The position numbers and the translations under genes are program-made. Shown in pieces: positions 10,648 through 64,000 of a DNA stretch of 64,000 bases (position 1 is the first letter of the stretch; each line of letters begins with the position of its first letter). Source of the DNA: Lingula anatina (taxonomy: Eukaryota > Animalia > Brachiopoda); assembly GCA_051362555.1 (NCBI GenBank), contig CM120641.1, positions 62,001-126,000 on the forward strand, written 5' to 3'. The notes under the pieces were generated by a model. That model saw only the letters and a program-made list of their open reading frames with translations. It was not told the origin of the DNA and made no database searches.

Positions 10648-11465
10648 CTGAAAATGATATAAAAGAAGAAAAGTACACTTTAATCAAAGTACCAATTTAA
10701 TGAATGTGAGAAGTACATGTATGTTCTAATACGGAGGCATTGCATATAATATTGCATATACAAAAGTCATAATGGCACATCTACCTTAATCCATATTTTC
10801 AAGTCTAGTGAACAACATTAAAGTTTACCCATGATTGGGTTTTTAACATCTCGATTGACCTTTCGTGTCAACGGCAACATTCCTACCCTCAAGCACGTCA
10901 GTCAAATCTAGATTTAAAAGTAAGCCTTTTTCAAATATCTCTTCAATAATGGTGTTACTTTCCTAAGAAAAATCGCGTGAGAGCGCTGTCAGAGACTGAT
11001 AAAGAGCAGAAAAGGGGCCGGTGAACTGTTGTCATTTAACACATTCGTTTGTAAAATGTTTAGATCCTTACTCAGGAAACCGCGTTAACACTTGCCCCCA
11101 AAGATCCCCCCTTTTCATGCGTTTTCTCTTTTAGGTGGTTAACCAGAACATCCCAAGACACCCATCAGCCTTAGCTGTTTTAATAATACGGAGACAATTC
11201 CTAGACTCAGTTTCTTTCACTGAAACTGCTCCTGTGCAATCACTCAATGTGAGGCCTGTGAGTTCTAGTCTCTGAGTTCTAGTCTCTGAGTTCTAGTCTC
11301 TGAAAGTTCATCATATTTCAATGGCTATAATTAACCCCAAACAATACAGCAGAGGAGTAGAGTCACAAGCATCATTTCTTAGAAGTTATAATTAATATAA
11401 AATAAAAACCGGCCACAAAGCACGTGTAAACCGCCAATACACATAATAACCTAGTCGCAGGACCC

Positions 11466-13122: not shown

Positions 13123-14071
13123 TAACAAAAAAACAAGCTCTTTCGAGAAAAACAGGGACTAACTTTGAATGTAGTAACCATTGGTAAGTATGGGGAAATT
13201 GGCATTTACCCCGGGAAATTCATTTTTTGGCCAAAATGAACAGTTGTTATCCTTTTAAGTATGGTTTGAGTATATCACTAAAATCGGGCAAATTTTAGTT
13301 GCAAACGTATTATAAATATTTTTCTAATTCGCCCTTCGTGATTATTGCATATCTTATGAATTAAGTAATGCAGGTATGGCAAAATATGTTTTGCAGTCAG
13401 TAACGAAACCCTGGTTGTATTTAGTGTATCACTGATGGGTAGTTAACCATCTACAGCCCTTCTTTCTGAGCACTGTATGGTTAATATTGGAACAAAGTTG
13501 CATGTATATTGTGTATATAATTATAAATGCACTTGATCGTCGCTTCAGTGCTATCTGTCTACAATGAAACGTTTTTTACAGAGCACTTTATGCAAGGGTA
13601 AATGTTGTAACAAGGTTGCACTTTATTGTCGGCTCGCATTAATCAATTTCAGCGATCTTCATTCTGGTTGGGGGAAACTGATGCCTTAATTCTCGTAAAG
13701 TTCATGCTTTTAGGCGTAACGATAATTGGCAAAGCTACATCAGAATTGGCAAAATGGAATCCGTGCTTCCCGGACCGAAAACACATGCCAGCGTTAAATC
13801 CATCTTAGTTAGTTTTTATCCATGAGAGCTGAAAAAGTGAATATAAATCTCGATCACACCTGACCTGCGCACTTGGTGCTTTGACGGCATAAAACATGTG
13901 AACCCAATTATTTGGATTTAAGTATTGAAATGCGTAGACAAGGTGAAATTAGTCATAACACCCTTGAAACGTGCCCTTAAAAGGCCGAAAGAAAGAGATA
14001 CGGGTTGGGCGGGTAGAGAGGGAAAAAGTAGCAGTAGAGAAAGAGATAGGGGTTGGGCGGCTAGAGAGGAA

Positions 14072-22447: not shown

Positions 22448-22598
22448 GGGGGTATCACAGTATACTGGTGTTGCCATGCACTGTTGGTTTTAAGATCTGG
22501 CACACGAGTAGTAAACCCAGCATTCCTATAGTTCCTCTTTCACACCCCACCCCCACCCATCCACACACACCCCAAGAAACCAGGCAGGGTGTACTTAC

Positions 22599-22900
22599 GC
22601 CTGAGTTTTAGGGACTTGTCGAGTGGAGAGATCTCTTTCACTGGTTACGAACCCAGCAGGTTCAGCAGATATAGCCGTTCTTTTCAGCCTGCCTTTCATG
22701 TTAGCCCTCATCTGTGCCTGGTGTTTTTCCGTGATAGGTTTTAGGACGGCCCTGTACTTGGCTAATTCATTTTGAAGATGCTTTATCAGCGCGTCTTTTT
22801 CATCCAGTTCCTGCTCTAACTCGTCTATCAGTTCATCGCGTTGTCTTAACTCCTCAATTTTCTCGGACAACGCCAGTTGAAGATCCCTTAAAGTACCCAT
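22599..22900 (-). CDS. PRKG1: PKG alternative first coding exon, I-beta-like leucine zipper plus autoinhibitory segment
   Basis: ATG at 22900 with an in-frame stop upstream; [36 protein letters not shown]...KRTAISAEP closely resembles the vertebrate PKG-I beta N-terminus; phase-2 donor GC|gtaagt. Confidence 0.95.
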
Positions 22901-25900
22901 GGCTTTCACCGAACGCTGGTTGCCTACTTATCCCACAGAATGAGAACGAAGGAGATCCACAAAACTCTTATACGATCTTGAAAAAGAACTCGCAGAACTA
23001 AAGTCTTTCTCCTGACCTTTATGAGAGGAAACTCGTGTTAGCACTTGTTTTGTTTGTCAGCAGTGCATTTATCCTCGCAAACATCATATTGGACCCAGTG
23101 TTCGGACAGTCTTGTCGGAATTCACGGCTATGTCTCCGCCGAAGAAGAGTCCGTTTGTGTCGTTAGATGCCTGGTATATACAATTCCTTTCTGCTTGGAG
23201 ACGTTTTACTTGTATTATGTCACGTTTACAATCCTGGGCGAAACTGCAATCCGTTATTGATTCAATCAATGATTTTACCTGGAACACTCCACTATTCCAA
23301 ATACCAGTGCTGGTTTCGTGTGTCTCTCATTTCTCTGTACACGGATATCAGGAAACAGTGACAGAAGACGCGAATTCCAGCTAAAATACAGTACGTGACT
23401 TCTAGTAACAACAATAACAACAGACAACAAACTGGCTGTTCGACAACTGGTTACACTTACTTCAGATTTAAACCAGTACAATAAGTCAAGTTTTATCTTT
23501 CCTCCCGTGGAGTTGTCATGGCAACCAGCTGATTCCCCGTGGCATTCCTAAGTAGTACACAGGTGAGATCTCCAAATTCCAAGTAGCGAAACTCCAGCTC
23601 TGGGAAAGTAGAAAAACACGGCCTGAGGAACGAGTAGTCGGAAACCGCTCGCAGATGTTTTCTCTTCGGTCCAGCTATGTTGTTTGCCTGCGCTGTATCA
23701 TGATGGAGGTATGGGGTGCTGCATACTTGACGATTGAACGGGGCCGGGACGCTCGAACAATATCACATTCCCCGTTTTCTTAACTAGCCGACAGCGTTCA
23801 TCAGTAGCAGGGTGAAACGTGCACATTTCTGTATCAAAACACCCCAAACCCTGTTCAATGAATTTCCCTCAAGTTCAGTTGTCAATCTGTCTTGTTGAGA
23901 GGAAATAAGATCACTTTTGGACTAACGCATGTTTGTTTCTAAACACCTTGTCAGTGCACATCCGCCGCGATTTTCTTTAGATGAAGGCAATAAAGGTAAT
24001 TTACGTAGTAATTTAAACGCCTGGATCAGCATTAACCTAATTGAATTCATATAAATTACTTGAATCATCCTTAAGCTTAACACACAGGACGAAAGCAGTG
24101 ATGTAAACATCAAGCTACCACAGCCCCCAAGGAGATAACAAATCAGCTTCATTCCCACGAATTACAGTGATAAAAAAGACTGATCCAAAACGGTTGTTAC
24201 TTTCAGGATATTTATCATCATCATTTTGTGTATCTGCGGGATCAGTCCAGATTGCCGGTTTTAAAGACTGGGTGATGTCTGTGCTATAAACATTAACGGA
24301 ACAGAGCACATCTTAAACTTACTTTTATTTTATGACTAAAGAGTCTGAATCAGAGAGAGAGAGAGTGAGCAAACAGATTTGAAGATAATAATATACGGAG
24401 ATATGACGCCAGTGCCGTCACAACAGACCAAGCATAATCATCTATCATAAGAACAGCCATATCTTGAAATCGAAATGAAAAATGAAGACTGGTTTCATAT
24501 TTGACACACACGCACAGATTTGTGGTGAGTTCCACTGCTTTATTGATTTCATCCCGTGTACTCAGACTCAGTATATGGGCCAGGGACAGGTGGAACAGAA
24601 CAGGGCTGAAGATGGATGGATTTCTCAAAGTACATCATAAAAGTATATAACGAGGGTGTCGAATGTCACCAGTAGAATACTAAAACAGCTGTGAATTCAA
24701 ACTATGCAGCAGTAATAAAACTCTCATGATGTGGAGAATACATCACACTATGGAAAATGATTATGGTGAATTTATAGTCAATGATTTTTTTTTAATTCAA
24801 TTTTTTAAAATGTTTAGTAATCATTTAGCACGGAGTATTCCTTGAGTTGTTAATCATAAATAATATCATATCAGATGGTTATAACAATAAGACTGTATAA
24901 CGCCGTAGTGGGACCTGAAAAAGAGTAGAGCAGATTGAGAGTAACTCAGGGGAATGTTGCTGATGTACAGTGCAGGATTGCGTTTGCGGAGACACGTCAC
25001 AACCGGTCGCATTTCTCACCAAATTTCCAGACTGCCCAGCTAGTATAATAAATCTATATCACACAGAATCAAGATCGATCATAACGCAAAACTCTTGGGT
25101 TTTATGTTTTATGACAGGGAATTCATTCTCACTGATTTAAATTAATATGACGAATGAGCTCTCATGTTATCAGAGAGTCTCTAGATATTTCCATATGTCA
25201 ACCGACAGACAGGTTTTCTAGTGCTTTCTCAAAATATTCACGTTGCTAGCTATTAGAACCTTCCAGTTACGGTGATCAGTTAGTTAACACATTATTTTGA
25301 TGCCATCAGCTCTTTTGGTACCATTTTTAATATTTCATATTGTGGACCTCATTTGCTACAAAATCGGAAACATATGTTGGTGCACTAAGATAACGTGACA
25401 CGTGAAATGTTGCACGTATGACATCATCGGTCGTGTATCAAATGTAATTCCCTTAAAATAGCCTCTCGATTTATCAGGACTTTCCGCTGCAATCTACCTA
25501 TTGTGTCAACCCCGGGTAAATATTTGCCCGTTCTTACACCCGAGATAGGCAGGTAAGCTGAATGGGACGCGGGTGACCTGTGTTTTCCGGGCGTCCTCCT
25601 CTGAAGTAGCAATAAATAATTTCGAGTAGAAAGACTTTGCGTCAAGAAAGAGCTATAAGTAAGCATCGTGGAGGTTAACTCCGCGTATGACGAGATTACA
25701 GCGTCTAATAGGTCTGCTAGTAGGATTAGGATAAAAGAGAGATAGGCGAAATCTGCAGATAGTTTTATATAGCGTATGACGTCTGTAGCCGCGAGTTTTT
25801 TTTTCTGGAAGACAGACGCCAGGCAAAGTGACAACTCTACAGCTGGATGTTACCTTTGACAAGCATAATATCGGAAAGAAAACTAAGAAGGAGATATTGG

Positions 25901-38696: not shown

Positions 38697-39273
38697 GCAG
38701 AAAACACGAAATTTCACTAAGCAAAAAACAAAAATACATCCCCACTGATTCCCCAGTTAATATTATTAGCATGGCGATGAAAGATGGAGATGGTATTAAT
38801 ATCTATGATTGCAAGACATCCCAGTATATACAGAATGTTATTATAATGTGGTTAAGCTATCAGTCCACGCAACCAGTGCAATATTCGGACCACGCCTCGT
38901 CTCCTGTTTACATGTATACTGACACCATCCAACACACGTCAACGTGCATGACTTTAAAACTAGATTGATTAAGTATGACTTTCTTTCTTCAAACAAACCC
39001 TCGATTGCCTCTTGTTTATATTCTCCCCTAAGCTAGCACGGGGATAAATAAGACTTATCTTCTGCGTCCTTTTGACGTTAAGAAGGGAAGAGAAAGAAGT
39101 ACACGTTCTGAGTGAAAACGCACCAGGTCATACCGATAACTAGCAGACAGTGACACAGGGAACGCTATCATATTGCTAAACAGTGGACACCACAGTACAA
39201 GGCATATAAGTACAAGGCATAACCTTAGGCTACTGACTCTGGCCGCGGCTATAACATGAAGCATGAAGCTTAC

Positions 39274-39542
39274 CTGGGTGACTTAGAATATTTCCTAAAC
39301 TTCTGTCTGGTCAGCTCTGACACCGTCCTCTGAGCCTGCTGGGGCTCGGCTGAGATCCCCTGAGCACGCTGTTTCCTGGGCCCAAACTTGGGGCTCTTGG
39401 GGCCAAACACAGACTGATATTTATCCAGCTGGCTTCTTAACTCCTGGATCAGTCCATTCTTGTGTTCGATCTCTAGCTGAAGCTCACGAATCTGATCATC
39501 TTTCATTCGTAGTAGTTTCTGCAAGTCCTGTAAACTTCCCAT
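39274..39542 (-). CDS. PRKG1: PKG alternative first coding exon, I-alpha/insect foraging-like
   Basis: MGSLQDLQKLLRMKDDQIRELQ...ELRSQLDKYQSV...PRKQRAQGISAEP; RAQGISAEP is the pseudosubstrate region of PKG-I alpha/for; phase-2 donor AG|gtaagc. Confidence 0.93.
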
Positions 39543-40298
39543 GACGCAGCAGAGAGATAATAACCACACTGTACGAGTGTGTCTGTATGTGTCAGTGTAG
39601 AAGTAGTGGTCGTGTAAAACTAAAGCAAGGCCGTGGTCAGTGAAGTCGATAAATCACAATCTACCTGCTTTGACTGCTAGATATAAATTACTACAGTCAT
39701 CCCCTGATGATTTCAAAATCCCTGTAAGAGTCCAACTCTCCGGCTGAGTATTGATGTGGATGACGGTATATTTCACCTGAATGCCACTCCACGTAACTTA
39801 CACAGTACTGCTATTAATCACATGACAGACGGCAGCTCCACCTTGCGAGGAGGTCGTCTAATTGAGTGGTGGTGATAGTGTTATGGCGATAATGGCCCCT
39901 GTGCCTAAAGGCATCAACACAGACATCAGTTTTGACCCTTGAGATTTTGACATGTTAAAATACAGTGGTTCACAGTAGCGTGGAAGGATACGTATAATGC
40001 GTACAGATATGACGGAATCAACAAACAACATGCGTACTTCTATGCGTACACCTCTACGCGGGTCGCAATGATTCCATGAAGAATGTCGTATATTTTTCAG
40101 CCAAACTTCACAATTTTTATTTCATGGGTCGTTATACAGGGCTGTTAGATTTACAGCGCACGAAGTGAGCAGGCTTTTTTTTAAAGGTTCATAGAAGTAG
40201 AAAAATATGCGTAGGAATAGCGTTAATAAATCCATCGTTGACGAAATACATTGTGCACGGGGTATAGGGAAAAACTTTGATATTTTTGAGTTGCAGAT

Positions 40299-44010: not shown

Positions 44011-44465
44011 TCACACTAAATAGTCGCAGTAATCGTAGGTGAGCTTTGGTTTGAGCATGTCATTCCCCACCCGCAGTTTATCAAATCTCTCCACCTCTTT
44101 ATAGAATGGGATAAGCTGCTTGTCCATAAACTCCGGATATTCCTCAGGGGTTGGACGTTCTTCAGTGGGTGGATGCAACTCCAGATTCACATCTTGAACG
44201 AGGTCAAACCGTTTAATCTTGGCTAGAGTATCAAGAAGGTCCTGGGCACGTGCTCTCGTGTGATGACGTCGCCAGCGCTGGAGACTGCGTAGTGCGCGAT
44301 CTTCCGTGAGATCTCGAGGAACACCGTGAGACAAGTCATGGATGTCTGCTTCTATCTGTGCGTTTCCCCTGGGCGGGATGAAAGGGAGGTTCCTGTATAA
44401 GGTCATCCAGTCGTTACCAATATGGTTGGCCACGACGTGAAAAGCTCTGTCGAGGGGGCCTACAT
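44011..44465 (-). CDS. Coiled-coil/death-domain protein, terminal coding exon (death domain)
   Basis: ttccttgcag|AT joins in frame (604 aa total); AFHVVANHIGNDWMTLYRNL...ALRSLQRWRR...LLDTLAKIKRFDLV fits the death-domain pattern (recognised by eye). Confidence 0.82.
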
Positions 44466-44833
44466 CTGCAAGGAAAGAAAACGTAAACGTGTCGTCACAA
44501 TTAAGGTAATGGGTAATCAAAAGTAAAATTAATTTTTGTTTGACTACAATCAAAGATCAATACTTTTTCATTGAAAAAAACAATAATGATGATGATTTCT
44601 TTTCAATAAACTCATCAGGTTAAATACTGTAAGCTGATAGAGCAATAGACCGTTAAACTTTCCTTTTCCATCCACTCCAATTTACCTGGACGTTCTTTTT
44701 CTCTCTTTTTTTTTTTTTTTTTTTCGCGTGTAACAGCTAACAGCAACTTCTAATTTCGCTCGATTTTTACAATCTTTATCATGTAAGAATTGCAGAAACA
44801 TGTTTTTTTTTTAATATAGTACATCAAAATCAC

Positions 44834-46193
44834 CTTCTTTGTCCATCTTTGACCGCCCCCCTCTTCTGTCCAAGTCATAGAATATCCTCTGTAGGACACT
44901 GACACTGGTCTTTTGGATAACAATTTGTTTGATCATAGCAATAGTCCTCGTCACATTGTTACAACTACTCTGAAGTTTTGTTTTTTCCTTCTCAGCAGCT
45001 GCAGTCTCTGCGGCAAGTTCATTTATTCCGCCATTAGCGTTCTGTAAGGCTTCTCGTCTCTCGTTGATCCACTTTAATTTACTGTGAACGTGGTCCAGTC
45101 TCTTTTTCATGGCGGGCAACGTCTCGTAAATGTCTCTGAGTTCGAGGTTGAGCTGGTCCCACGTTTCATTGAGCACCTCTGTGTTCATACCGGCCGCGTT
45201 CCTCCGGAGCTCGTCGCGTCTGAATTCTTTAATATCGAGCTCCAGCTGCATCTCGTTGGTGTCGTTGCCCAGATATTCCTCCTCAACTAACAGAGCATCC
45301 TCCTTGGCTTTAAGAGATTCTAGTTCGTTTTCCAGAGCCCTTGACTGATTTTCCTTTTGATGAACTTTGTACGAGGCTTGATAGCTCTTTTCTTGAGCTT
45401 GCTTTAAGAGTTTCGTCAGAGAGGCAAGTTTGCGTTCAGAATCCGCCAAATCGTTCTTAAGGTAACCGACGAAATTCTCGTCCGCTTTGATCCACGAATT
45501 GACTGTGCTGCATGCGACTCGTACGTTCTCGCAAGCGTCAGGAAAGAGAAGAAGAAAAGGCAAGTGTGAGCATTCATAACGAGCACCTAATTCTTTGGCA
45601 TATGTCCCCATCAGCCCGGGTGTCACCCCATACGCACTTTTGTAACTTTCAGAGGCGCTGACAATGTTATTCAAGCATTTCTTGATAGTTTTCGACCACT
45701 CACCGCGCATGCGCGTGTAGTCTGTGGCCGTCCCCAAATAGGGGTCTGTTTCAGGATCATAGAAACTGAGACAATATTTCTCTAAATATCCCAGAATTTT
45801 AACCACCTCGTCCGTCAAAGGTTTGAATTTTCCAGGCATGTATTCCAACACTTTCAAGTGACATTCTTGCATCTTAGAGAGACAAAACCTATCCACTTTA
45901 AAAACACTGCGAGGATTTGCTCCTCGCTTAAGAACATCTTGAATTAACAAAGCAGATCGTAGTTCAGGCAAATCAAAAGTGCTAAGAACGCTGTTCAATG
46001 GTTTTAACCACTTTCTTATCTCGTTGCCTGGGTTCTTTCCAAATCCATAGTAAGCCTTCTCTAATGTCGCCAAATTCTCTATCACTACTTTCGTGTGCTG
46101 TGTTAAGATCTTCCGTAGCGTTGCCAGGGATTTGGGAGGTCCTTTTTCTAGCTGACCGATGTCGCTTCGACTTTTTCGAGAGAAGAACGGCAT
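44834..46193 (-). CDS. Coiled-coil/death-domain protein, coding exon 1 (helical N-terminus plus long coiled coil)
   Basis: 1360-nt open frame from ATG 46193 (MPFFSRK...); E/K/L-rich heptads in the second half; phase-1 donor G|gtgatt; a good acceptor ttctttatag| starts the exon at 46449 (5'UTR part). Confidence 0.85.
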
Positions 46194-49680: not shown

Positions 49681-49846
49681 ATGTACGTCTGTCTTTCATT
49701 TTTTGCGGAATAAATCACTTATTATACATACATAGAATGAGCTAAGTTTACGGTTACTCAACAGTAGAACTAACGCGCTGTACAAAATTTAATAAAAAAA
49801 TAAGAAACTCCAGCGTCACTTTAACAGTGTATTACTTTCAACCTAC

Positions 49847-49900
49847 CTTGTCCTCTCCCCTGTAGCGTCTGTCACACTGGTATTTCTAATAACATTATCA
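49847..49900 (-). other. Possible non-coding upstream exon (5' boundary unknown)
   Basis: Strong donor CAAG|gtaggt at 49847; the acceptor at 46449 needs an upstream exon. Motif-only evidence. Confidence 0.3.
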
Positions 49901-52047
49901 GTTGGTTTCAGATACCTAGCGGACATAGTGTATGTATTCTGTTTTACGTCAAAAATGATCGATTCTACAACATCGGGTGACTTAATTCAATAATTGACAG
50001 TGTCACCGTGTCACCGTACTGTTGACACTCACGACACCTTTGATACAGTCAGCTGTGAGACCGTGTTGATTTAGCCTCCCTGTCCAACGCTGCCCTTATA
50101 ATAGTCTAGAGAATGTGGTTCGGACACACGGGTGGCGGTCAGCTGTCGTGTTAGCCCTAAGATTGCTATAGTTTACCGGGATCAATACCGTATAACACAT
50201 ACCACAACGCCAGATAAACCGCTGAAAGAGCGTCATATCTGAACTTTCGATTACCTAAGCAAACCGGGTGAATTAGAAGGTTAATAAAACGCGTTATCGG
50301 AATTAATTCATTTATTGGGAAAACAAAAAGGAACCATTCATCATTCTTGACTGAAATTGTAATGATTTAGGCACATTTGGCATCTTGGGTTGCTCTAGCA
50401 ACAAGTACTGAGGAAGATTTATACACAAAAGTAGAATATTAATGTGTTATTTGAAAGGGTTAAGGCAACAAAACTGAACTATCCAACACATTTATTGCAA
50501 CACAGCTGTGGAACGTCTCCAATTAAGATGAGGCTTGTTCATAAATATTAGCGTTCAAAGAATCTATCTCTATACTTTTGGTACAAGAAAGATACCTTTT
50601 TCGTTAGATCGAAATCGATAAATGGAAAATACGATATAGTTTTTTAAATGTGCAGAAAGTTATAACCTTACATGAATCAATTTTCATAAGTCAATAAGTC
50701 GGTTTTTCTGCCGTTTCTGTGATTTCCAATTAAGCACTTGAATCTGTATTTCTCAAAGACTATAAAACATATGTCAATGTCCCACTGAGGTTGACAAGCA
50801 ACACCATGAGAAGAAATGCTATGGCATTAAAAAGGGATATCTTATATAAAATGAAAAAAACATCGGTGAGTTCTATTTACATTTCCTTCACTCGTTATGC
50901 TGTATGTGCATCAACTGCTTCAGCAGACGTCTCTATAGCTCAATAAACATCCAGCAATCATATGAGATAAGCTAACTTATGAAATAGCAAGAGTTACGAT
51001 CCAAATATAATTTATCTGATAATTAAAAAGATTAAACCATTATATATTTATCAATAATTCCGTGTACGTAAATCATTCCTGATTCCATACTTACGAGCCG
51101 AATTACTAATCTTCACCTTGTCATCTTACGCTATCCCCCATATGTTAGAATATCCATTATCTTCTGCCCACAGATCCAATTTAATTCATATGTATTTTCT
51201 CCTCGTAGCTGCCGGCTGACACTGGGTTGCCAACAACATATTCCACGCGGTGATAAATTAGAGCATGACATCAGTAAATAGGACGACAACATCACACTAT
51301 CTTACAGTCAAGGCGACAGCGTATAAGATTAGAAGTTGAAAAGTGGGCAAACGTTTCTTTAAAAAGGTTTCGATAAGAGTTTACCTTAGAGTTAAGTGGA
51401 TTGCGTCAAAAGGTCGTCCAGATTAGACAGTCGTTATTGACTTAAGGCGCCAGAGGTCGCCACGAGCCAAGACGCGGTTGTCATTTACTATACAGGCTAT
51501 CAAATCATTAGTTGAAACGTCTTCTCTGATGGATAATTAATACTGGCACATTTATAATAGATATAAATAAATACTGTCAGGTGTTTCTTGTCTAATGCAA
51601 TGCAATCAATGGAATCTGATAACAAAAATAAGATATTTTGTTTTAGCAGGGCATCTCTATCAAGTTATAGATCGTGTGGAGGAATCGTGTATAAGATACA
51701 TATTGGCTTGAGATTAATCATATTTCTGGGTACTTACAGAATTTATCAACATGATATTGTTATCTTTAGTTTTTTATAACTGAAAAAAGCATAAAATATG
51801 CATGTACAGGAGACCCAAGTTGTTAGACAAAAATAAACGGATGCTCTGATAATACTGGTAACTTTTATTTTAGGGTATATGACGACAGGAAGCTAATGGA
51901 GTAATGACATTGTGTAAAAGTCGCCAATTAACTGTGACTCTGGGTTTTTTACCCGTCCATTGTGTTCCCCCACCCACCAAAAGCCTCAATGCGGTGACTC
52001 CTGTACAGCATGGATCAGTGACAATGAGTAACAAGCCGATGACTTAC

Positions 52048-52200: not shown

Positions 52201-52974
52201 TTACCTTGATTTACTATTAATACGTCGTTTGCAGTATTATGTTTTCGAGTCATTTTTCTCGTTGTGACTGAACCCTAGCCAAAGTTGGCCTAAAATGTGG
52301 TGTACTTCTTACATCGCCTCAGCAAGGACACAGAGCAGAGAGTTGAAATGGTTTCCATGTGACTTTGAACAATCTGGTAATATTTAGGCACGATATACCT
52401 TTTTAACACGTTACTTCAGGTTAGACGTTTTGAATGCATGCCCCCTAGCGTGACTCTTTGGTTTTTTTCACACACAATAATGCTACTTCACAAACAGTCA
52501 CATTACAGGCGCCAGTAGCGTGCTTCACGCACAAAAAATAAAGACCGAAATTTGGTATTAGCTTTAAAACGTGCAAAACATGGCTTAGTTTAATTCTTAG
52601 CCCAATACGTGTAACCAAAACTAATATTTGAGTAAAACATTAGATTGGTCTTTTTATACGACAAGCACACTATTTTATTTTAATTGACGGCTTTTGATTA
52701 TCTCAGGTAAATGTAGGTGTTTAAAACAATATCAGCTTTCGGAGTTTTAACTCTAGGATATTACAAATATGTCTAAAACTCGATTTTTAGTTTTTTATAC
52801 GTTAGAAATAAACAATATTGTATCTAATACTCAATTAAGTTATATTTGTGAAACACGGACTAAAAATATACATTTGGAAGAGTTTTTCTACCTGTCCTGA
52901 CTGGTACGGGTGGCAGGCTTTAGGCCGCCGCCTCCGTTGTCAAGCACCGTTACTATGGGGGCGGGGCAAGAATG

Positions 52975-53358
52975 GTTGTCTGCATTTGTACTATAATTAA
53001 GTGTCTCTGCTAATTTAACTCCAAGACATTTATAAGACTTTTCATAATCAAGTGGCACTCCACCGCAATTAAACTGAAAGTTACTCCTTTCAACACCTGG
53101 TTTTCTAAAATGTACGATTTTTGTTTTCTTTTGGTTAACAAATAAACTCCATTTATAAGACCACTCACTTAGCTTATCAAGCATAGCTTGCAAGTTTTCC
53201 TCAGTAGGAGCAATAAATACCACATAATCTGCATATAATAATATATCTATAAAGTTTTTTCCTACTTCAACACCTTTCGAGATCCGTTTTATCTCTTGCG
53301 CTAAGTCATTAATGTATAAGGCAAATAGGGTTGGTGATAGATTATCACCTTGTCGTAT
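52975..53358 (-). mobile_element. Non-LTR retrotransposon reverse-transcriptase fragment
   Basis: IRQGDNLSPTLFALYINDL...LLYADY...VNQKKTK...YKCLGV are LINE RT motifs; catalytic YADD reads YADY; truncated at both ends. Confidence 0.92.
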
Positions 53359-53459
53359 AAAATGGACAAAGCAAGCCATATTTCCACATTGTGAACAGGA
53401 GTACAGATAAATCCGGACGAAGAGAACAACCAATAATACAGGCAGCTCTATTTAATAAG
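53356..53459 (+). promoter_or_regulatory. STING copy 1 core promoter and non-coding exon 1 (about 53386-53459)
   Basis: TATAAAA 53356-53362; Inr-consensus CCACATT with its A at 53386, 30 nt after the first T; donor AAG|gtaaga at 53459; no in-frame ATG. Confidence 0.65.
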
Positions 53460-53894
53460 GTAAGAACTTGTATTCAGGTACAGTGCCTTCCAAAAAATAA
53501 CAGTTGTAATAGGGGCTTGATATTTTACATTCATTTTGATCTGGATAATGAGACTGACTTTCATGTCCCTACACTGTATACATCTAAGGAGCAACATAAC
53601 ATGTAATACATAGCCTAAGGTGAGGGTATTGTTCGAACAAATCTTTTAACTTGATAGTTTATCCTGTTTTCTTAAAGTCACCCCTTTTCAATTCCATTTT
53701 TTTATAAGCCGTCAATCATATTTTATTATTATTATTCTTATCATTATTATTATTATTATTTCTCGTGAAATGTGTCAGCGCTAAGCTGCCTTTTTTCAAT
53801 GTTTAAATTAATTTATTTCGATGGTTTATTTGTTTTTGTCCTCATATTTGAATGATTTAGAATAACTCACGATATCTATTAATTTCAGTTCACG

Positions 53895-53985
53895 ATGACC
53901 GCAGCAGCCTCCGAGATAAAGAACAGTATGGGCTACGGCCTGGCCTGGTCTTATTACTACGGCTATCTGAAACTGATTTTACCCG
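53895..53985 (+). CDS. STING1: STING-like copy 1, coding exon 1 (dimerisation helix)
   Basis: Acceptor aatttcag| (exon starts 53889); MTAAASEIKNSMGYGLAWSYYYGYLKLILP contains the STING GLAWSYYxGYLxLILP signature; phase-1 donor G|gtaagt. Confidence 0.93.
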
Positions 53986-54485
53986 GTAAGTGGTCTTATT
54001 ACTACGGCTATCTGAAACTGATTTTACCCGGTAAGTGGTCTTATTACTACGGCTATCTAAAACTGATTTTACCCGGTAAGTGGTCTTATTACTACGGCTA
54101 TCTGAAACTGATTTAACCCGGTAAGTGGTCTTATTACTACGGCTATCTGAAACTGATTTTACCCGGTAAGTGGTCTTATTACTACGGCTATCTAAAACTG
54201 ATTTTACCCGGTAAGTGGTCTTATTACTACGGCTATCTGAAACTGATTTTACCCGGTAAGTGGTCTTATTACTACGGCTATCTAAAACTGATTTTACCCG
54301 GTAAGTGGTCTTATTACTACGGCTATCTGAAACTGATTTTACCCGGTAAGTGGTCTTATTACTACGGCTATCTAAAACTGATTTTACCCGGTAAGTGGTC
54401 TTATTACTACGGCTATCTGAAACTGATTTTACCCGGTAAGTGGTCTTATTACTACGGCTATCTGAAACTAATTTTCCCCGGTAAG
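53946..54485 (+). repeat. 45-bp tandem array (12 units) of STING exon end plus splice donor
   Basis: Unit tggtcttattactacggctatctgaaactgattttacccg|gtaag = WSYYYGYLKLILPGK; unit 4 has TAA at 54114-54116. Confidence 0.98.
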
Positions 54486-54722
54486 TGGTCCGGTAAGTGG
54501 TAACAGAGAAATATTATGATTGAAGTACAAATCGTCGAAATAAATAGGTACTATTCAGGACTAGAAACAGTTAACGACACAAATATTTAAATTATTACCA
54601 CTTTACAGGTAAGATGTGGACAGTTCCAAGAAGTCAATTTGAACAAAATTGATTTTTTAATCAGTAACTGGATATCAGATTTCTTTAAAAAATAACAAAA
54701 ATATTCTTTCACCCGTCCTCAG

Positions 54723-54955
54723 GTCTAGCTGACAGAGTAAAGACGTCAACTTTTTGGGACGCTAGCAACCAACGCATCGCCCCCAAACTGTTCATCCTGC
54801 TGCCCACCTCGTGTTTTGCGCACCCCACCCTTACAGACGGGGACTCCGCTGTCCAACCTGGGGCGCACCTCGCCGAGTTCAAGGCCAACCGGTCAGGAAA
54901 TCCGCACAGAGTGTACAGAAATTTTGTCTATAAAGTGACCTCGGAAGATGGGCAG
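54723..54955 (+). CDS. STING1: STING-like copy 1, coding exon 2 (lid region)
   Basis: gtcctcag|GT...CAG|gtatgt; 233 nt; KLFILLPTSC...NRSGNPHRVYRNFVYKV aligns with human RLYILLPLDC...DRAGIKDRVYSNSIY. Confidence 0.93.
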
Positions 54956-54994
54956 GTATGTGATCATGTCTCTCTCTCTCTATCCCTCTCTCTT

Positions 54995-55026
<32 letters not shown>

Positions 55027-55174
55027 TGTCTCTCTCTCTCTCACACACACACATACACACACACACACACTGTCTTTCTCTCTCTCTCTCACTTCAAGGC
55101 TTGTTAAATTTACTGAAATGGAAATGAGTAGTTGTCATGAATTAAACCATTCCCTTTATCTGGTCTGCTCGTAG

Positions 55175-55367
55175 GATTACTACTGTGTGGCGGAATATGC
55201 CACACCCCTTCTCACGCTGTTTGAGATGGAAGAAGACACACTGGCTGACCTGTCAAAGGAGGAAAAACTGAAACAACGGGCAATTTTCAAGTCCACCTTG
55301 TTGGATATTTTAACCAGATCTGGGGTCAAGGAATGTCAGGACGCATGCGTACTTCTTGATGTGGATG
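55175..55367 (+). CDS. STING1: STING-like copy 1, coding exon 3
   Basis: gctcgtag|GAT...G|gtaaga; 193 nt; CVAEYATPLLTLFEM...LSKEEKLKQRAIFKSTLLDIL contains the STING EYATP motif. Confidence 0.94.
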
Positions 55368-55415
55368 GTAAGAATAAAAAACACTTTCGTTATATATTTG
55401 TCCAGTTTGTAATTA

Positions 55416-57087
55416 GGATTTCCCATAGGGGAATACTATTGTTTTTGGTAGTATTATTAGGATTCCCCATAGGGGAATACTATTGTTTTTGGTATTATTA
55501 TTATTATAGTAATTATTCTTTCCGCGCGTTTTTTTTTTCGCAAAAAATTTGAAATAATTCTCATAGGTAGCCTATGGCAAGAATATTCTACAGAACCAGT
55601 TTCAGTGCCCTTGACCTACTTTTCAAGGTCACAGGGGCTTTTAAAGGCAAAATTTGTAAAATTTGAAATTGCCATTAGGCCTAAAGTATAAGCTGTATGC
55701 ATAAGGGCCTTATGGCCAATGATACTGTGACAAATCCACAGATAATGACTTACTTTTATGCAAGTAGGTCAAGGTCAAGGTCGCTAATGGCCAAACGTGC
55801 TCAAAAAAGGTTTGTTTCCGAGATCTCAAGAACCGGAAGGCCCAGAGCCCCAATCATAGTGGCAAATGATGCCCTATATATATATCTAAAGTTAGCCGTA
55901 CTTTAGTAGCGACTGCTTAATTACTTTTTTAAATATAGATTTTTAAATATTTATGACATTGCAGAAATCTTGAGTTTGGCAATTTCTCCATGAAACACTG
56001 GTTTTTGGTCATAGCATGCTATAGTAAACTACCCCAAACATATACCCAAAACACCCAAATCAAATGTCAAATTTGACCTTGACCCTCATTTTCAAGGTCA
56101 TTCGGCTATTTCATGGATAAATATTGAAGTGGGCTAAAAGTGATGTTTTGTTGACCACCCCCCCCCCCTCCAATTCGCACATGCTCTTTCAGAATATTGG
56201 GTCAAATTTAACCCATGACCTTCACATGACCTTGTAAGAGCATTTCCACACCTATTTTGCAGGGGAATCCTCCGCCAATGGCTTTAGCCAGTTGCAGTCT
56301 AGTTATTATTATAGTAATTATTCTTTCCGCGCGTTTTTTTTCGCAAAAAATCTGAAATAATTATCATAGGTAGCCTATGGTCAGAATATGCCACAGAACC
56401 AGTTTCAGTGACCTTGACCTACTTTTCAAGGTCACAGGGGCTTTTAAAGGCAAAAATTGTAAAATTTGAAATTGCCATTAGGCCTAAAGTATAAGCCATA
56501 TCGCTAAGAGCCCTATTATGGCCAGTGATACTGAGGTAAATCCACAGATAATGACCTACTTTTATGCAAGTAGGTCAAGGTCAAGGTCGCTAATGGGCAA
56601 ACGGGCTCAAAAAAGGTTTGTTTCCGAGATCTCAAGAACCGGAAGGCCCAGAGCCCCAATCATAGTGGCAAATGATGCCCTATATATATATCTAAAGTTA
56701 GCCGTACTTTAGTAGCGACTGCTTAATTACTTTTTTTAATATAGATTTTTAAATATTTATGACATTGCAGAAATCTTGAGTTTGGCAATTTCTCCATGAA
56801 ACACTGGTTTTTGGTCATAGCATGCTATAGTAAACTACCCCAAACATATACCCAAAACCCCCCAATCAAATGTCAAATTTGACCTTGACCCTCATTTTCA
56901 AGGTCATTTGGCTATTTCATGGAGAATTATTGACGTGGGCTAAAAGTGATGTTTTGTTGACCCCCCCCCCCCCAATTGTCCCCTCCTCAAATTTATCCCG
57001 TGACTTTCACATGACCTTGTAAGAGCATTTCCACGCCTATTTTGCAGGGGAATCCTCCGCCACTGGCTTTAGCCAGTTGCAGTCTAG
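55416..57087 (+). mobile_element. Helentron/HINE-like non-autonomous element, head-to-tail dimer in STING copy 1 intron
   Basis: Absent from the copy 2 intron (empty site gtaatta^tttgttggg); subterminal IRs aggattcccc/ggggaatcct; 3' hairpin ctggct-tt-agccag then CTAG at 56299 and 57084; two units of about 790 bp. Confidence 0.85.
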
Positions 57088-57212
57088 TTATTTGTTGGGC
57101 CCCTGTTTATCATTATTATTCAGTTGAAATGATTTCACTGTAAAGTGGCGAATTATATTCTAATTATACTTTATAATCAAGGCACTTTTAACCACAGTCA
57201 TATTATTTCCAG

Positions 57213-57283
57213 ATGCCCCTAATTCGGCGACATCGCTCTCCCAGCTGCTATTACAGGCTATACAGAGGGAATTGGAAAACTAA
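57213..57283 (+). CDS. STING1: STING-like copy 1, terminal coding exon
   Basis: atttccag|AT; DAPNSATSLSQLLLQAIQRELEN* resembles the last STING helix (SLSQEVLRHL); spliced CDS is 588 nt = 195 aa; AATAAA at 57668. Confidence 0.85.
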
Positions 57284-58142
57284 GCAGACTAAAACATCGA
57301 CATCTGAGGTGCTGATATTTGAGAAATCTGTGCTCAAGATTTGACACCTTTACAACATATATCATTTACATCAAGTTTTATTGATATATGTTGAAATATA
57401 TTGACACTTGTGTTACTATAGTAAGTAGGCCAGTAAGGGAATGGAAATTAATTTAAGTGATTTTTTTAATTAAGTTGATTATGTCAAAATGACAGTCTCG
57501 GTATGAAAAATTATGGTTGAGATCAACTAGGACATTTACATTGAAGTTCTTTTCTTCAAATAATGATTTATCAGTTTTTCTACCTAAAGCCACACTTTTT
57601 TATTTTTATGGATGACATCCTCTGGGTACCCCAAAATCGGTGCGAGAGGGCGAAAAAAAAACAGTCCAATAAAAAAAACTGCATAAGTAAAGGAATGCTG
57701 TCAGTACACAGCTGGAAACACAAATTTTACCACAGAAACACGAATTAAACTAACAATATATCTTTATCCATGCTCTCAAAATATTAAAGCATTGCGAATA
57801 CTTCGTAGAAATGTATTTAAAGTCACAAATAGATATACTTCATATTACCAAATCTATTCAAGGTTATTTCATGCATTTTGTTGGTAAAGCAATTAATAAA
57901 ACAAATATCAAACAAACAGTGTGTCTTTATTTGTATTCTCATAATATTAAAGCACTTTGAACACTTCACAGAAATGTTTTAAAAATTATGCAAAGATATG
58001 CTTAATACTACCAAATCTATTAAAGGTCATTTCGGACGATGCCATTTTGTCTATTTCGACTCACACGCAGCAGCCAAACTGTCAGGTGGCCTGTCCGACC
58101 TTCAGCCCACCACCCTTGTCGACCCTTTTTTCGCTACAGAAA

Positions 58143-58972
58143 ACTTCGCTTATGGCGAGCGGGCGCAAGCATGGCGATTCCTCGCTATCCCATATCTCGA
58201 AAGGCTCGCAAATCGCGACCGTGCGCTAATAGCGAAATCACCATTAGTTTCTAGGCTATTATTTGCGTATTATTATTATTTGGCCTCTGCGTATGCATAA
58301 TTCGTCATTTTAATGTGTCTTTCATGTAATTAAACATGGCGGCAAGTTTGGGTTGCTAGTCACACAAGTAATAGCATATAACAAAACATATAGATTGAAT
58401 CACTCGGTGCCTCTGATAGAAAAACTTGCGGTAAATATTCACGTGAAGAATGCTAAAGTTATATTTTATTATGCATAAAAATTTCAAAATTTAAAGTTTC
58501 ATGCATCATTTTATATTTTCTGATGAATATAATTCATCTGTGTTGCCTGTTGATAATAATCATACACAAAATGAAAAAGCAGAAACAAAGCATTCGGTCG
58601 CACCGTGACCTTCCTCAATGTCTATTATTGTGAGACTGAACACTTCCCACCAATGTGTCAGTAATTGTGTCAGTCCAAGCTTCGCTTGTTTTTTGACATT
58701 TTATTGGTATCAAACACTTCAAATATCAGTATTTGTAATTATGATATTCCTATAAATAAATACAACTTCTTGATTAGCGTCATGGTGAAAAAAATACATT
58801 TTGTGTAATTGTATTATGACGTCTTCACTTTATGCGGCAATCGAATTTTAGTAGAGTTTGAGGTTATAATTGCGTTGCGTTTGCTAAGGCTTCAAGATAA
58901 CAGGTGGGTGCAATCGCACTCGCAAATAGCGAGTAATCGCCATCCTCGTGCCCGCTCGCAACATAGCGAAGC
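58143..58972. mobile_element. Putative MITE with about 50-bp imperfect inverted repeats
   Basis: cttcgcttatggcgagcgggcgcaagcatggcgattcctcgctat is an imperfect reverse complement of atagcgagtaatcgccatcctcgtgcccgctcgcaacatagcgaag; no TSD identified. Confidence 0.55.
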
Positions 58973-59857: not shown

Positions 59858-60033
59858 GGGGAATTCCCTTCTGCTAAAACTAGGCCATGATTCAAATCTG
59901 GAAAACTGTAATTTGGCGATTGGTAACCGTATAAAATGGACAAAGCAAGCCATATTTCCACATTGTGAACAGGAGTACAGATAAATCCGGACGAAGAGAA
60001 CAACAAATAATACAGGCAGCTCCATTTAATAAG
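59858..60033 (+). promoter_or_regulatory. STING copy 2 promoter (kB site, TATA, Inr) and non-coding exon 1
   Basis: GGGGAATTCCC 59858-59868; TATAAAA 59930-59936; Inr A at 59960; donor at 60033; a weaker kB-like GGAAATTTCA near 59749. Confidence 0.68.
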
Positions 60034-60464
60034 GTAAGAACTTGTATTCAGGTACAGTGCCTTCCAAAAAATGACAGTTGTAATAGGGGCTTGATACTTT
60101 TACATTCCTTTTGATCTGGATAATGAGATTGTCCCTACACTGTATACATCTAAGGAGCAACATAACATGTAATATATAGCCTAAGGTGAGGGTATTGTTC
60201 GAACAAATCTTTTAACTTGATAGTTTATCCTGTTTTGTTAAAGTCACCCCTTTTCAATTCCGATTTTTTATAAGCCGTCAATCATATTTTATTATTATTA
60301 TTCTTATCATCATTATTATTATTATTATTTCTCGTGAAATGTGTCAGCGCTAAGCTGCCTTTTTTTCAATCTTTAATTTAATTTATTTCGATGGTTTATT
60401 TGTTTTTGTCCTCATATTTGAATGATTTAGAATAACTCACGATATCTATTAATTTCAGTTCACG

Positions 60465-61252
60465 ATGACCGCAGCAGCCTCCGACATAAAGAACAGTATG
60501 GGCTACGGCCTGGCCTGGTCTTATTACTACGGCTAACTGAAACTGATTTTACCCGGTAAGTGGTCTTATTACTACAGCTATCTGAAGCTGATTTTACCCG
60601 GTAAGTGGTCTTATTACTACGGCTATCTGAAGCTGATTTTACCCGGTAAGTGGTCTTATTACTACGGCTATCTGAAACTAATTTTACCCGGTAAGTGGTC
60701 TTATTACTACGGCTATCTAACTAGTAAGGTTAATATAGCAAAAAGAATCCCAGTCGCTGTTATGAATTAACAGAGAAATATTATGATTGAAGTACAAATC
60801 GTCGAAATAAATAGGTACTATTAAGGACTCGATTCAGTTAACGACAAAAATATTTAAATTATTACCCCTTTACAGGTAAGATGTGGACAGTTCCAAGAAG
60901 TCAATTTAAACAAAATTGATTTTTTAATTAGTAACTAGATATCAGATTTCTTTAAAAAATAACAAAAATATTCTTTCACCCGTCCTCAGGTCTAGCTGAC
61001 AGAGTAAAGACGTCAACTTTTTGGGACGCTAGCAACCAACGCATCGCCCCCAAACTGTTCATCCTGCTGCCCACCTCGTGTTTTGCGCACCCCACCCTCA
61101 CAGACGGGGATTCCGCGGTCCAACCCGGGGCGCACTTTGCCGAGTTCAAAAGGCCAACCGGTCAGGAAATCCGCAGAGAGTGTACAGAAATTTTGTCTAT
61201 AAAGTGACCTCGGAAGATGGGCAGGTATGTGATCATGTCTCTCTCTCTATCC

Positions 61253-61287
<35 letters not shown>

Positions 61288-61829
61288 ACTGTCTCTCTCT
61301 CTCTCTCTCTCACTTCACGGCTTGTTAAATTTACTGAAATGGAAATGAGTAGTTGTCATGAATTAAACCATTCCCTTTATCTGGTCTGCTCGTAGGATTA
61401 CTACTGTGTGGCGGAATATGCCACACCCCTTCTCACGCTGTTTGAGATGGAAGAAGACACACTGGCTGACCTGTCAAAGGAGGAAAAACTGAAACAACGG
61501 GCAATTTTCAAGTCCACCTTGTTGGATATTTTAACCAGATCTGGGGTCAAGGAATGTCAGGACGCATGCGTACTTCTTGATGTGGATGGTAAGAATAAAA
61601 AACACTTTCGTTATATATTTGTCCAGTTTGTAATTATTTGTTGGGCCCCTGTTTATCATTATTATTCAGTTGAAATGATTTCACTGTAAAGTGGCGAATT
61701 ATATTCTAATTATACTTTATAATCAAGGCACTTTTAACCACAGTCATATTATTTCCAGATGCCCCTAATTCGGCGACATCGCTCTCCCAGCTGCTATTAC
61801 AGGCTATACAGAGGGAATTGGAAAACTAA
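60465..61829 (+). pseudogene. STING1: STING-like copy 2, inactivated
   Basis: Exons 60459-60555, 60990-61224, 61396-61588, 61759-61829 are near-identical to copy 1; TAT>TAA at 60534-60536 and a +2 insertion near 61148-61151. Confidence 0.88.
60516..60720 (+). repeat. 45-bp exon-end/donor array in STING copy 2 (4 full units plus a partial)
   Basis: Same unit as 53946-54485. Confidence 0.96.
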
Positions 61830-63056
61830 GCAGACTAAAACATCGACATCTGAGGTGCTGATATTTGAGAAATCTGTGCTCAAGATTTGACACCTTTACA
61901 ACATATATCATTTACATCAAGTTTTATTGATATATGTTGAAATATATTGACACTTGTGTTACTATAGTAAGTAGGCCAGTAAGGGAATGGAAATTAATTT
62001 AAGTGATTTTTTTAATTAAGTTGATTATGTCAAAATGACAGTCTCGGTATGAAAAATTATGGTTGATATCAACTAGGACATTTACATTGAAGTTCTTTTC
62101 TTCAAATAATGATTTATCAGTTTTTCTACCTAAAGCCACACTTTTTTATTTTTATGGATGACATCCTCTGGGTACCCCAAAATCGGTGCGAGAGGGCGAA
62201 AAAAAAACAGTCCAATAAAAAAAACTGCATAAGTAAAATAATGCTGTCAGTACACAGCTGGAAACACAAATTTTACCACAGAAACACGAATTAAACTAAC
62301 AATATATCTTTATCCATGCTCTCAAAATATTAAAGCATTGCGAATACTTCGTAGAAATGTATTTAAAGTCACAAATAGATATACTTCATATTACCAAATC
62401 TATTCAAGGTTATTTCATGCATTTTGTTGGTAAAGCAATTAATAAAACAAATATCAAACAAACAGTGTGTCTTTATTTGTATTCTCAGAATATTAAAGCA
62501 CTTTGAACACTTCACAGAAATGTTTAAAAAATGATGCAAAGATATGCTTAATACTACCAAATCTATTAAAGGTCATTTCGGACGATGCCATTTTGTCTAT
62601 TTCGACTCACACGCAGCAGCCAAACTGTCAGGTGGCCTGTCCGACCTTCAGCCCACCACCCTTGTCGACCCTTTTTTCGCTACAGAAAACTTCGCTTATG
62701 GCGAGCGGGCGCAAGCATGGCGATTCCTCGCTATCCCATATCTCGAAAGGCTCGCAAATCGCGACCGTGCGCTAATAGCGAAATCACCATTAGTTTCTAG
62801 GCTATTATTTGCGTATTATCATTATTTGGCCTCTGCGTATGCATAATTCGTCATTTTAATGTGTCTTTCATGTAATTAAACATAGCGGCAAGTTTGGGTT
62901 GCCAGTCACACAAGTAATAGCATATAACAAAACATATAGATTGAATCACTCGGTGCCTCTGATAGAAAAACTTGCGGTAAATATTCACGTGAAGAATGCT
63001 AAAGTTATATTTTATTATGCATAAAAATTTCAAAATTTAAAGTTTCATGCATCATT

Positions 63057-63103
63057 ATGTACAGACACAGATGTGTCTGTACATATAGCCATCATCTGCG
63101 TCT

Positions 63104-63144
<41 letters not shown>

Positions 63145-64000
63145 GCACTTTTACCGATAACACGATAAGTGGAAAACTATTTTACCTTTTGACTTGAAAC
63201 TTGCAGAACTGATGAATATTCATAATACGCAGGTCAAGTTCGAAAATCAGCATGATCGGGTCACTTTTAGGGAATTTATGCAGTTTTTTCACTTTTTTCA
63301 GCATATATGCAGCACCGATAACACGATAAGTGGAAAACCATTTTACCTTTTGACTTGAAACTTACAGAACTGATGAATATTCATAATACACAGGTCAAGT
63401 TCGAAAATCAGCATGATCGGGTCACTTTTAGGTAATTTATGCTGTTTTTTATCTTTTTTCAGCATATATGCAGCACCGATAACACGATAAGTGGAAAACC
63501 ATTTTACCTTTTGACTTGAAACTTACAGAACTGATGAATATTCATAATACGCAGGTCAAGTTCGAAAATCAGCATGATTGGGCTGTTTTGAGGGAATTTA
63601 TGCTGTTTTTTCACTATTTTCAATATAAATGCAACACTGATAACACAATATAAGAAAAACGGATTGGCCAATTGTAATTATACTCACAGGAGTGGTCAAT
63701 CTTACTAAAACGCAGGTTGAGTTCGAAAATCAGCATAATCGGGCCATTATTTTAGAAGTTATACTGTTTTTTTCACATTTCCTCAGATTCAATTCTTAAG
63801 CATGTTAACAGTCTCATTATTTAACTAATAAGATGCCTAAAAGTGTTTGTTTGATATTTCCTGCATCTTTACAACATTGTTAGTTGATTATGTAAAAAAC
63901 ATGGTAAACTTGTTATCATGTATTGTGTAATAAAGTGTCAAAAATGGAAATAAACTCATATCATTGCAGTTTGTCAGATTCAATCATCCACTATGTTCAG
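63057..64000 (+). mobile_element. HINE/DINE-1/pearl-like element (5' part)
   Basis: Begins in a T run where homology to copy 1 stops; 5' hairpin atgtacagacaca-ga-tgtgtctgtacat, a (GTC/GCC) microsatellite, then about four 161-bp core repeats (63153, 63314, 63475, 63636); 3' end not seen. Confidence 0.8.

What the first reader, a model, noticed from the sequence alone, without database searches (positions are those of the whole stretch)
53356..57283. Stand-alone soluble STING: ligand-binding domain only, with no TM helices, TIR or C-terminal tail
Seen: the spliced 195-aa ORF starts about 15 residues before GLAWSYY and stops after the last helix. The upstream exon is preceded by TATAAAA and an Inr at 30-nt spacing, has no in-frame ATG and no good acceptor. 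I see no TM- or TIR-coding exon before either copy. Pocket residues equivalent to human S162, Y163, Y167, R232, R238, Y240, N242, E260, T263, P264 and T267 are retained. Known: animal STINGs signal through TM-anchored or TIR-fused oligomers; tail absence is normal in invertebrates. Inference: an effector-less receptor could be a host cyclic-dinucleotide sponge, a dominant-negative feedback inhibitor, or a sensor using a separate adaptor.
Basis: partly seen in the sequence, partly recalled or inferred. Interest (0 to 1): 0.85.

Follow-up and report, generated by a model that had tools for sequence, protein, structure and literature searches.

The report
Anchorless STING gene in a brachiopod
A lamp-shell (Lingula) gene apparently encodes only the signal-binding half of the immune receptor STING, with the binding-pocket residues intact but no membrane anchor or signalling domain, and likely acts as a soluble decoy that damps the animal's own cyclic-dinucleotide alarm; a second copy next door is broken.

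Summary
Observation confirmed for copy 1. The 195-aa ORF matches Lingula anatina RefSeq XP_013421964.1 at 192 of 195 residues, folds as a STING ligand-binding domain and keeps 11 of 11 pocket residues. It is only 33-44% identical to Lingula's TIR-STING domains, so it is an old lineage, not a recent fragment of them. Two RNA reads (possibly one molecule) splice the upstream exon onto the ATG exon. No TIR exon lies in the window; a TM exon was not found, but that search was weak.

Copy 2 is a pseudogene (stop plus frameshift). A LINE fragment abuts copy 1's TATA box, and the only kB site lies before copy 2. A 45-nt array repeats the exon-2 splice donor in frame.

Best reading: a soluble cyclic-dinucleotide decoy for the TIR-STING pathway (0.45; function untested). 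TM-less invertebrate STINGs have been noted in passing, and human STING-beta and STING-dN are decoy isoforms, so this is a new variant of a known kind.

The parts
53356..53362 (+). TATA box of copy 1; the duplicated segment starts at 53354, immediately before it
53386..53459 (+). Exon 1, likely 5' UTR (start predicted from the initiator at 53386; donor AAG|GTAAG). Open in frame with exon 2 but no in-frame ATG
   Evidence: 2 reads of run X11 join it to exon 2
53889..53985 (+). Exon 2: ATG at 53895, connector remnant and dimerisation helix (S19, Y20, Y24 = human S162, Y163, Y167)
53946..54490 (+). 45-nt tandem array that repeats the last 40 nt of exon 2 plus its GTAAG donor; 12 donors in all, in frame; the third added unit carries a stop
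54723..54955 (+). Exon 3: lid region (R87, R93, Y95, N97 = human R232, R238, Y240, N242)
55175..55367 (+). Exon 4: E115, T118, P119, T122 (= human E260, T263, P264, T267)
55498..57092 (+). Two tandem 0.8-kb copies of a repeat element in intron 4 of copy 1, absent from copy 2
57213..57283 (+). Exon 5, coding part: last helix and stop; no C-terminal tail. First downstream AATAAA/ATTAAA at 57668
53010..53358 (-). Reverse-transcriptase (likely LINE) fragment whose broken end overlaps the copy-1 TATA flank; likely displaced the native upstream DNA
   Evidence: Pfam RVT_1 E 5e-15; junction
59858..59868 (+). Palindromic kB-type site, the only such place in the window, 72 nt before the copy-2 TATA; a weaker site at 59749
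59930..61829 (+). Copy 2, pseudogene: exons 59960-60033, 60459-60555, 60990-61224, 61396-61588, 61759-61829; stop at 60534-60536 and a 2-nt insertion near 61148

Best explanation
This is a separate Lingula gene for a 195-aa STING ligand-binding domain with no TM, TIR or tail in its reading frame, which likely works as a soluble decoy: predicted to dimerise and trap cyclic dinucleotides, it would damp signalling through the animal's TIR-STING receptors. Shown: gene structure, fold, pocket residues, deep divergence, one splice junction in RNA. Inferred: the 5' end, ligand binding, dimerisation, NF-kB induction (from a kB site before copy 2) and the inhibitory effect. In this assembly copy 2 is dead and copy 1 appears to have lost its native upstream DNA to a LINE.
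For: RefSeq/EukProt model of the same 195 aa, differing at 3 residues, none in the pocket. Exon 1 to exon 2 splice in 2 reads. Exon 1 behaves like UTR: 2 of 2 differences between copies change the residue in that frame, whereas 4 of 7 substitutions in exon 3 are silent. Old lineage: among 1.84 billion representatives the best other hit is a 190-aa fragment at 55%, and all others listed are at most 47%; 44% and 33% to the two domains of Lingula TIR-STING. Pocket 11 of 11, against 0 of 50 TIR-linked domains, 12 of 96 TM-linked domains, and 9 and 8 of 11 in Lingula's own TIR-STING. Model pLDDT 94.8; Z 24.2, rmsd 1.8 A over 183 residues to oyster TIR-STING with 2'3'-cGAMP. Lingula has receptors to inhibit and enzymes to make ligand: two TIR-STING-TIR-STING entries and 13 cGLR genes. 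Precedent: human STING-beta and STING-dN sequester cGAMP.
Against: No functional data at all. RNA support is 2 reads that may be the mates of one fragment, and expression is very low in the 3 RNA runs laid (6-25% of each read; none in X5), which is a poor fit for a stoichiometric sponge unless it is inducible. No in-frame stop lies inside exon 1, so a longer ORF is not excluded. The TM-exon search was insensitive. Short STING models that start at this same position are often partial gene models in other animals (P0004, P0089 are named 'partial'). The kB site sits before the dead copy, not the intact one. Surface residues aligned to the vertebrate oligomer face are partly kept (A277, basic at 281 and 284; their role is recalled), which fits signalling as well. 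The human decoys keep the TBK1-binding tail; this protein lacks it.
Confidence: 0.45

Rival explanations
1. A soluble sensor: ligand closes and polymerises the dimer, which signals through a separate adaptor or by joining TIR-STING filaments as a high-affinity input.
For: Best-kept pocket among Lingula's STING domains; possibly the only TM-type pocket left, as no TM-STING is listed for Lingula. Section headings of PMC7292616 report that human STING without TM forms tetramers with cGAMP and signals (outline only). A Death-domain gene lies head-to-head about 3.2 kb away.
Against: No effector or tail in the protein; the human TM-less construct is recalled to keep its tail. Gene neighbourhood says little in animals. 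No adaptor identified.
Confidence: 0.2
2. The 3' half of a longer TM- or TIR-STING gene: exon 1 is an internal exon or an alternative promoter (as in STING-beta), and the real first exons lie elsewhere or were lost in this haplotype.
For: Exon 1 is open in frame and ends in phase 0; weak acceptor at 53398. The duplicated unit begins at the TATA and copy 1's upstream is a LINE junction, so native upstream DNA may be missing. M1 aligns without gaps to an internal Met of a bivalve-type TM-STING connector.
Against: RefSeq model is also 195 aa. No TIR exon: held-out Lingula TIR pieces were found 6 of 8 and 6 of 6 times, none in the window. No plus-strand open frame of 130 codons or more upstream apart from a tandem repeat, where a bivalve-type relative seems to carry its TM part in one long exon. 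No longer relative above 47% identity was listed. TATA, initiator and kB motifs sit in promoter order.
Confidence: 0.2
3. A relic in decay: the gene lost its anchor, is now drifting, and has no current function.
For: Copy 2 has a stop and a frameshift; copy 1 has a LINE at its promoter, a donor-duplicating array and a 1.6-kb intron insertion. Very low RNA.
Against: Two intact alleles (copy 1 and RefSeq); perfect pocket at 33-44% identity to paralogues; a sister sequence P0002 (99/93 support) with a similar Met before the domain. The pocket could, however, have been kept while the gene was still full length.
Confidence: 0.15

Closest known systems
Lingula anatina XP_013421964.1 (EukProt P037350)
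   Same: 195 aa, 192 identical to copy 1; listed with a single STING domain at 12-191 in the supplement of PMC10732462.
   Different: Another allele or copy (A81R, H92Q, S157P). Named only 'stimulator of interferon genes protein'; the main text of that paper has no passage on it among those I saw.
Human STING-beta (PMC5934658) and STING-dN (PMC12181837)
   Same: TM-less, bind 2'3'-cGAMP, inhibit the pathway; STING-beta has its own TATA promoter with NF-kB binding and low, inducible expression.
   Different: Isoforms of the one full-length gene and keep the tail that binds TBK1. STING-beta starts in intron 5, so it lacks exon 5 (recalled to encode the dimer helix). The Lingula protein is a separate gene, keeps that helix and has no tail.
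Lophotrochozoan TIR-STING (C. gigas 6wt6/6wt7; Lingula XP_013404162.1, XP_013401739.1)
   Same: Soluble STING fold; top structural match (Z 24.2, tied with human entries); the IQ-TREE tree puts the domain among TIR-linked domains at 91/86.
   Different: No TIR; lacks the PxG(N/D) linker typical of TIR-STINGs; pocket more human-like.
Bivalve-type TM-STING (PDB 8ydn, C. gigas; P0070, P0073)
   Same: Best single-domain sequence match (135 bits against 108 for TIR-STING; 40% identity), gapless at the start Met. A clade with them is not rejected (p-AU 0.258).
   Different: No TM region. Origin from TM- or TIR-STING is unresolved.
Effector-less STING-STING tandems of Capitella teleta and TM-less bivalve STINGs
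   Same: [quoted passage not shown]
   Different: Tandem domains or unverified gene models; no function reported in what I read.

Membership tests
Animal STING (PF15009) | STING ligand-binding domain by sequence | tested here: met
   E 6.5e-46, residues 13-191
Animal STING (PF15009) | STING fold | tested here: met
   pLDDT 94.8; Z 24.2, rmsd 1.8 A, 183 aligned; the model used a STING alignment
Animal STING (PF15009) | Cyclic-dinucleotide pocket residues | tested here: met
   11 of 11
Animal STING (PF15009) | Binds a cyclic dinucleotide | not testable with these tools
   needs ITC or EMSA
Animal STING (PF15009) | Forms a dimer | not tested
Canonical TM-STING | N-terminal TM helices in the protein | tested here: not met
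   no STING_TM hit, hydropathy maximum 1.15
Canonical TM-STING | TM-coding exons upstream in the gene | tested here: inconclusive
   none found, but control sensitivity 2 of 18 and 4 of 15
TIR-STING | TIR domain fused to STING | tested here: not met
   no TIR in the protein or in the window; control 6 of 8 and 6 of 6
STING-beta / STING-dN decoy isoforms | Lacks the TM anchor | tested here: met
   for the 195-aa ORF
STING-beta / STING-dN decoy isoforms | Isoform of a full-length STING gene | tested here: inconclusive
   no upstream coding exon or longer close relative found; 5' end not mapped
STING-beta / STING-dN decoy isoforms | Keeps the TBK1-binding tail | tested here: not met
   stop at the equivalent of human residue 339
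STING-beta / STING-dN decoy isoforms | Sequesters ligand and inhibits signalling | not testable with these tools
   needs a cell or in vitro assay

The most novel reading that the evidence does not exclude
A dedicated, NF-kB-induced host gene for a cyclic-dinucleotide sponge built from a bare STING domain: an animal counterpart of phage sponge proteins, old enough to have an orthologue in another animal (P0002) and arising repeatedly in lophotrochozoans as the off-switch of TIR-STING signalling.
Probability: 0.3. Interest if true: 0.8.

Novelty: new variant of a known kind. Interest (0 to 1): 0.52.

Why it matters
Animals with many cGLR enzymes and soluble TIR-STING receptors need a way to end the signal, and no dedicated intracellular sequestering gene turned up in my searches. 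A bare 195-aa STING domain is close to the construct that laboratories already purify, so binding and competition with TIR-STING can be tested at once. A positive result would show a host-encoded decoy receptor; a signalling result would show that STING can work with neither membrane anchor nor fused effector.

Tried and rejected
No whole genome is held for the window, so paralogues and synteny come from public protein sets only. Single-sequence fold was poor (pLDDT 45.7) and was replaced by the alignment-based model. Dimer prediction with cGAMP was not available: no verdict. The second read-laying run gave no data, so the 5' end and the copy-2 promoter have no RNA test. Runs X1-X4 held 0.05 of the words; X1 laid nothing: not evidence. 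No match in viral structures or viral contigs. No metagenome locus for P0002. The Atlas gave no usable hit. A connector-motif score leaned TM-type (+7.25) but 372 of 2000 shuffles reached it: rejected as evidence. Trees disagree: FastTree path distances favour bivalve-type TM-STING, IQ-TREE on 52 of the 227 domains favours the TIR group, AU test p 0.258. A hydrophobic plus-strand frame at 49796-49990 was rejected as a TM exon because it overlies a minus-strand donor of the neighbouring gene (inferred from motifs). tblastn hits running into intron 1 are AT-rich read-through. L002-L004 are spurious. Five look-ups of earlier scan findings gave one unrelated bacterial note. I cannot exclude that the two copies are alleles assembled in tandem (0-4% apart by segment).
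Full report
Gene and organism. The window holds two tandem copies of a five-exon gene, 53354-58510 and 59928-63056. Copy 1 splices at GT-AG sites to a 195-aa ORF from ATG 53895. It differs at 3 residues from Lingula anatina RefSeq XP_013421964.1, also 195 aa, so the window is from Lingula or a very close relative. The only Pfam family is STING_LBD, residues 13-191. An alignment-based model (pLDDT 94.8) matches solved STING domains: Z 24.2, rmsd 1.8 A over 183 residues to oyster TIR-STING, with human entries tied. It spans human residues 142-339, so there is no TM region and no tail.

Is the 5' end real? TATAAAA (53356), an initiator 30 nt on and a donor at 53459 occur in order; of 33 TATAAAA sites in the window only the two copies have all three. 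Three RNA runs and one contig set were laid on 52600-53985: run X11 gave 2 reads joining exon 1 to exon 2, possibly both mates of one fragment; X8 gave 2 reads on the end of exon 2; X5 and X1 gave none on the gene; only 6-25% of each RNA run was read. No transcript start was seen. Exon 1 is open in frame for 33 codons and has a weak acceptor at 53398, so the ORF is not closed by an upstream stop inside the exon. Against coding: both copy-to-copy differences in exon 1 change the residue, whereas 4 of 7 substitutions in exon 3 are silent. Profiles of 33 TIR and 86 TM N-termini found nothing at E under 0.05 in 2871 frames of the window; the held-out control was good for TIR (6 of 8, 6 of 6 pieces) and poor for TM (2 of 18, 4 of 15). 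No plus-strand frame of 130 codons or more lies upstream except a tandem repeat. A minus-strand Death-domain gene appears to start near 50100 (motifs only), leaving about 3.2 kb, of which 0.6 kb is repeat.

Copy 2 has a stop at 60534-60536 and a 2-nt insertion near 61148. The shared segment starts at the TATA flank, and the upstream DNA of the copies is unrelated. Copy 1 abuts a reverse-transcriptase fragment (E 5e-15) whose broken end overlaps the TATA flank. Copy 2 has the window's only palindromic kB-type site, 72 nt before its TATA (3 overlapping matches at one place, 0.64 expected window-wide). I infer that copy 2 keeps the native promoter and copy 1 the intact ORF. A 45-nt array repeats the end of exon 2 with its donor, in frame: 12 donors in copy 1, 4 in copy 2; the second and third donors would add one or two copies of the dimer helix, later ones meet a stop.

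Age and relatives. The STING table of PMC10732462 (supplement file 2, parts 50-51 and the Lingula rows seen; main text as passages) lists three Lingula proteins: two TIR-STING-TIR-STING and this one; no TM-STING. PMC9980059 counts 13 cGLR and 2 STING genes for Lingula (supplement rows). The protein is 44% and 33% identical to the two domains of Lingula TIR-STING and 40% to a bivalve-type TM-STING, gapless at the start Met. Among 420 hits in 1.84 billion representatives (150 listed), only fragment P0002 exceeds 47%; it is the sister in the tree (99/93) and has a Met 17 residues before the motif, but its source and 5' end are unknown. The pocket is complete here, in 12 of 96 TM-linked, 0 of 50 TIR-linked, 0 of 12 second tandem and 4 of 51 unlinked domains, this one included (209 gap-free domains of 227). 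Whether the ancestor was TM- or TIR-type is unresolved. Of 198 STING proteins in hand, 48 had one domain and no TM or TIR hit by my profiles; many are fragments, some named 'partial', while P0074 (198 aa, 5 members), P0067, P0069 and P0112 look like further effector-less candidates.

Mechanism. A complete pocket and dimer helix without any output domain, in a genome with soluble TIR-STINGs and many cGLRs, behind a likely kB promoter and at low resting expression, fits an inducible decoy best (0.45). Rivals: soluble sensor with a separate adaptor (0.2), part of a longer gene (0.2), decaying relic (0.15). Binding, dimerisation, induction and inhibition are all inferred.

Literature. Human STING-beta (PMC5934658: abstract and first part of section 22) and STING-dN (PMC12181837: abstract) are TM-less, cGAMP-sequestering isoforms that keep the tail. 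PMC5869526 (passages) notes oyster STINGs lacking TM domains, citing Gerdol 2017. PMC4117786 (passages) lists three TM-less arthropod models, possibly annotation errors. Capitella has STING-STING entries without TIR. PMC7292616 was seen as outline only. Passages of PMC9334734, PMC9402430, PMC13572491, PMC8204762, PMC6723221 and bioRxiv 10.64898/2026.04.20.719644 added nothing on this gene. Nine searches listed no paper on this gene or on a dedicated host STING decoy gene. Four papers that may bear on it were not held (recalled as Kranzusch 2015, Burroughs and Aravind 2020, Morehouse 2020 and Gerdol 2018 on Lingula immunity), and the tree and FASTA supplements of PMC10732462 could not be read.

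Verdict. Real architecture, annotated but undiscussed in what I could read; new variant of a known kind; interest 0.52.

Noticed in passing
L001:1499-2320: Intronless 273-aa ORF (P0019) on a 2.5-kb, 54% GC metagenome contig: animal-type STING domain (39% to P0001, 8 of 11 pocket residues) behind an acidic N-terminus, no TM or TIR; AAAATTGA about 70 nt upstream, recalled as a giant-virus early-promoter motif. Possibly a virus-encoded effector-less STING; origin not shown.
   Followed up: partly
window 44011-46193 (-), candidate first exon ending 49847: Gene for about 450 aa of helical/coiled-coil sequence with no Pfam family plus a C-terminal Death domain, head-to-head with STING copy 1.
   Followed up: partly
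window 22595-22927 and 39270-39653 (-): Two exons with the N-terminal coiled coil of cGMP-dependent protein kinase, likely alternative first exons or two paralogues.
   Followed up: no
window 53946-54490 and 60516-60720: Exon-intron junction minisatellite (45 nt, in frame) giving 12 and 4 competing splice donors; could yield proteins with extra copies of the dimer helix.
   Followed up: partly
window 52750-52981: Interspersed repeat well represented in all three RNA runs, both orientations, with several variants.
   Followed up: no
window 11450-13162: Long tandem array (36/72-nt period) open in two plus-strand frames for over 550 codons; no Pfam match.
   Followed up: no
window 63056-63780: 161-nt tandem element begins exactly where similarity between the two copies' 3' flanks ends; likely an insertion.
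   Followed up: no
window 6799-9448: Long inverted repeat pair (about 870 nt arms, 73% alike) with internal repeats, likely a DNA transposon.
   Followed up: no
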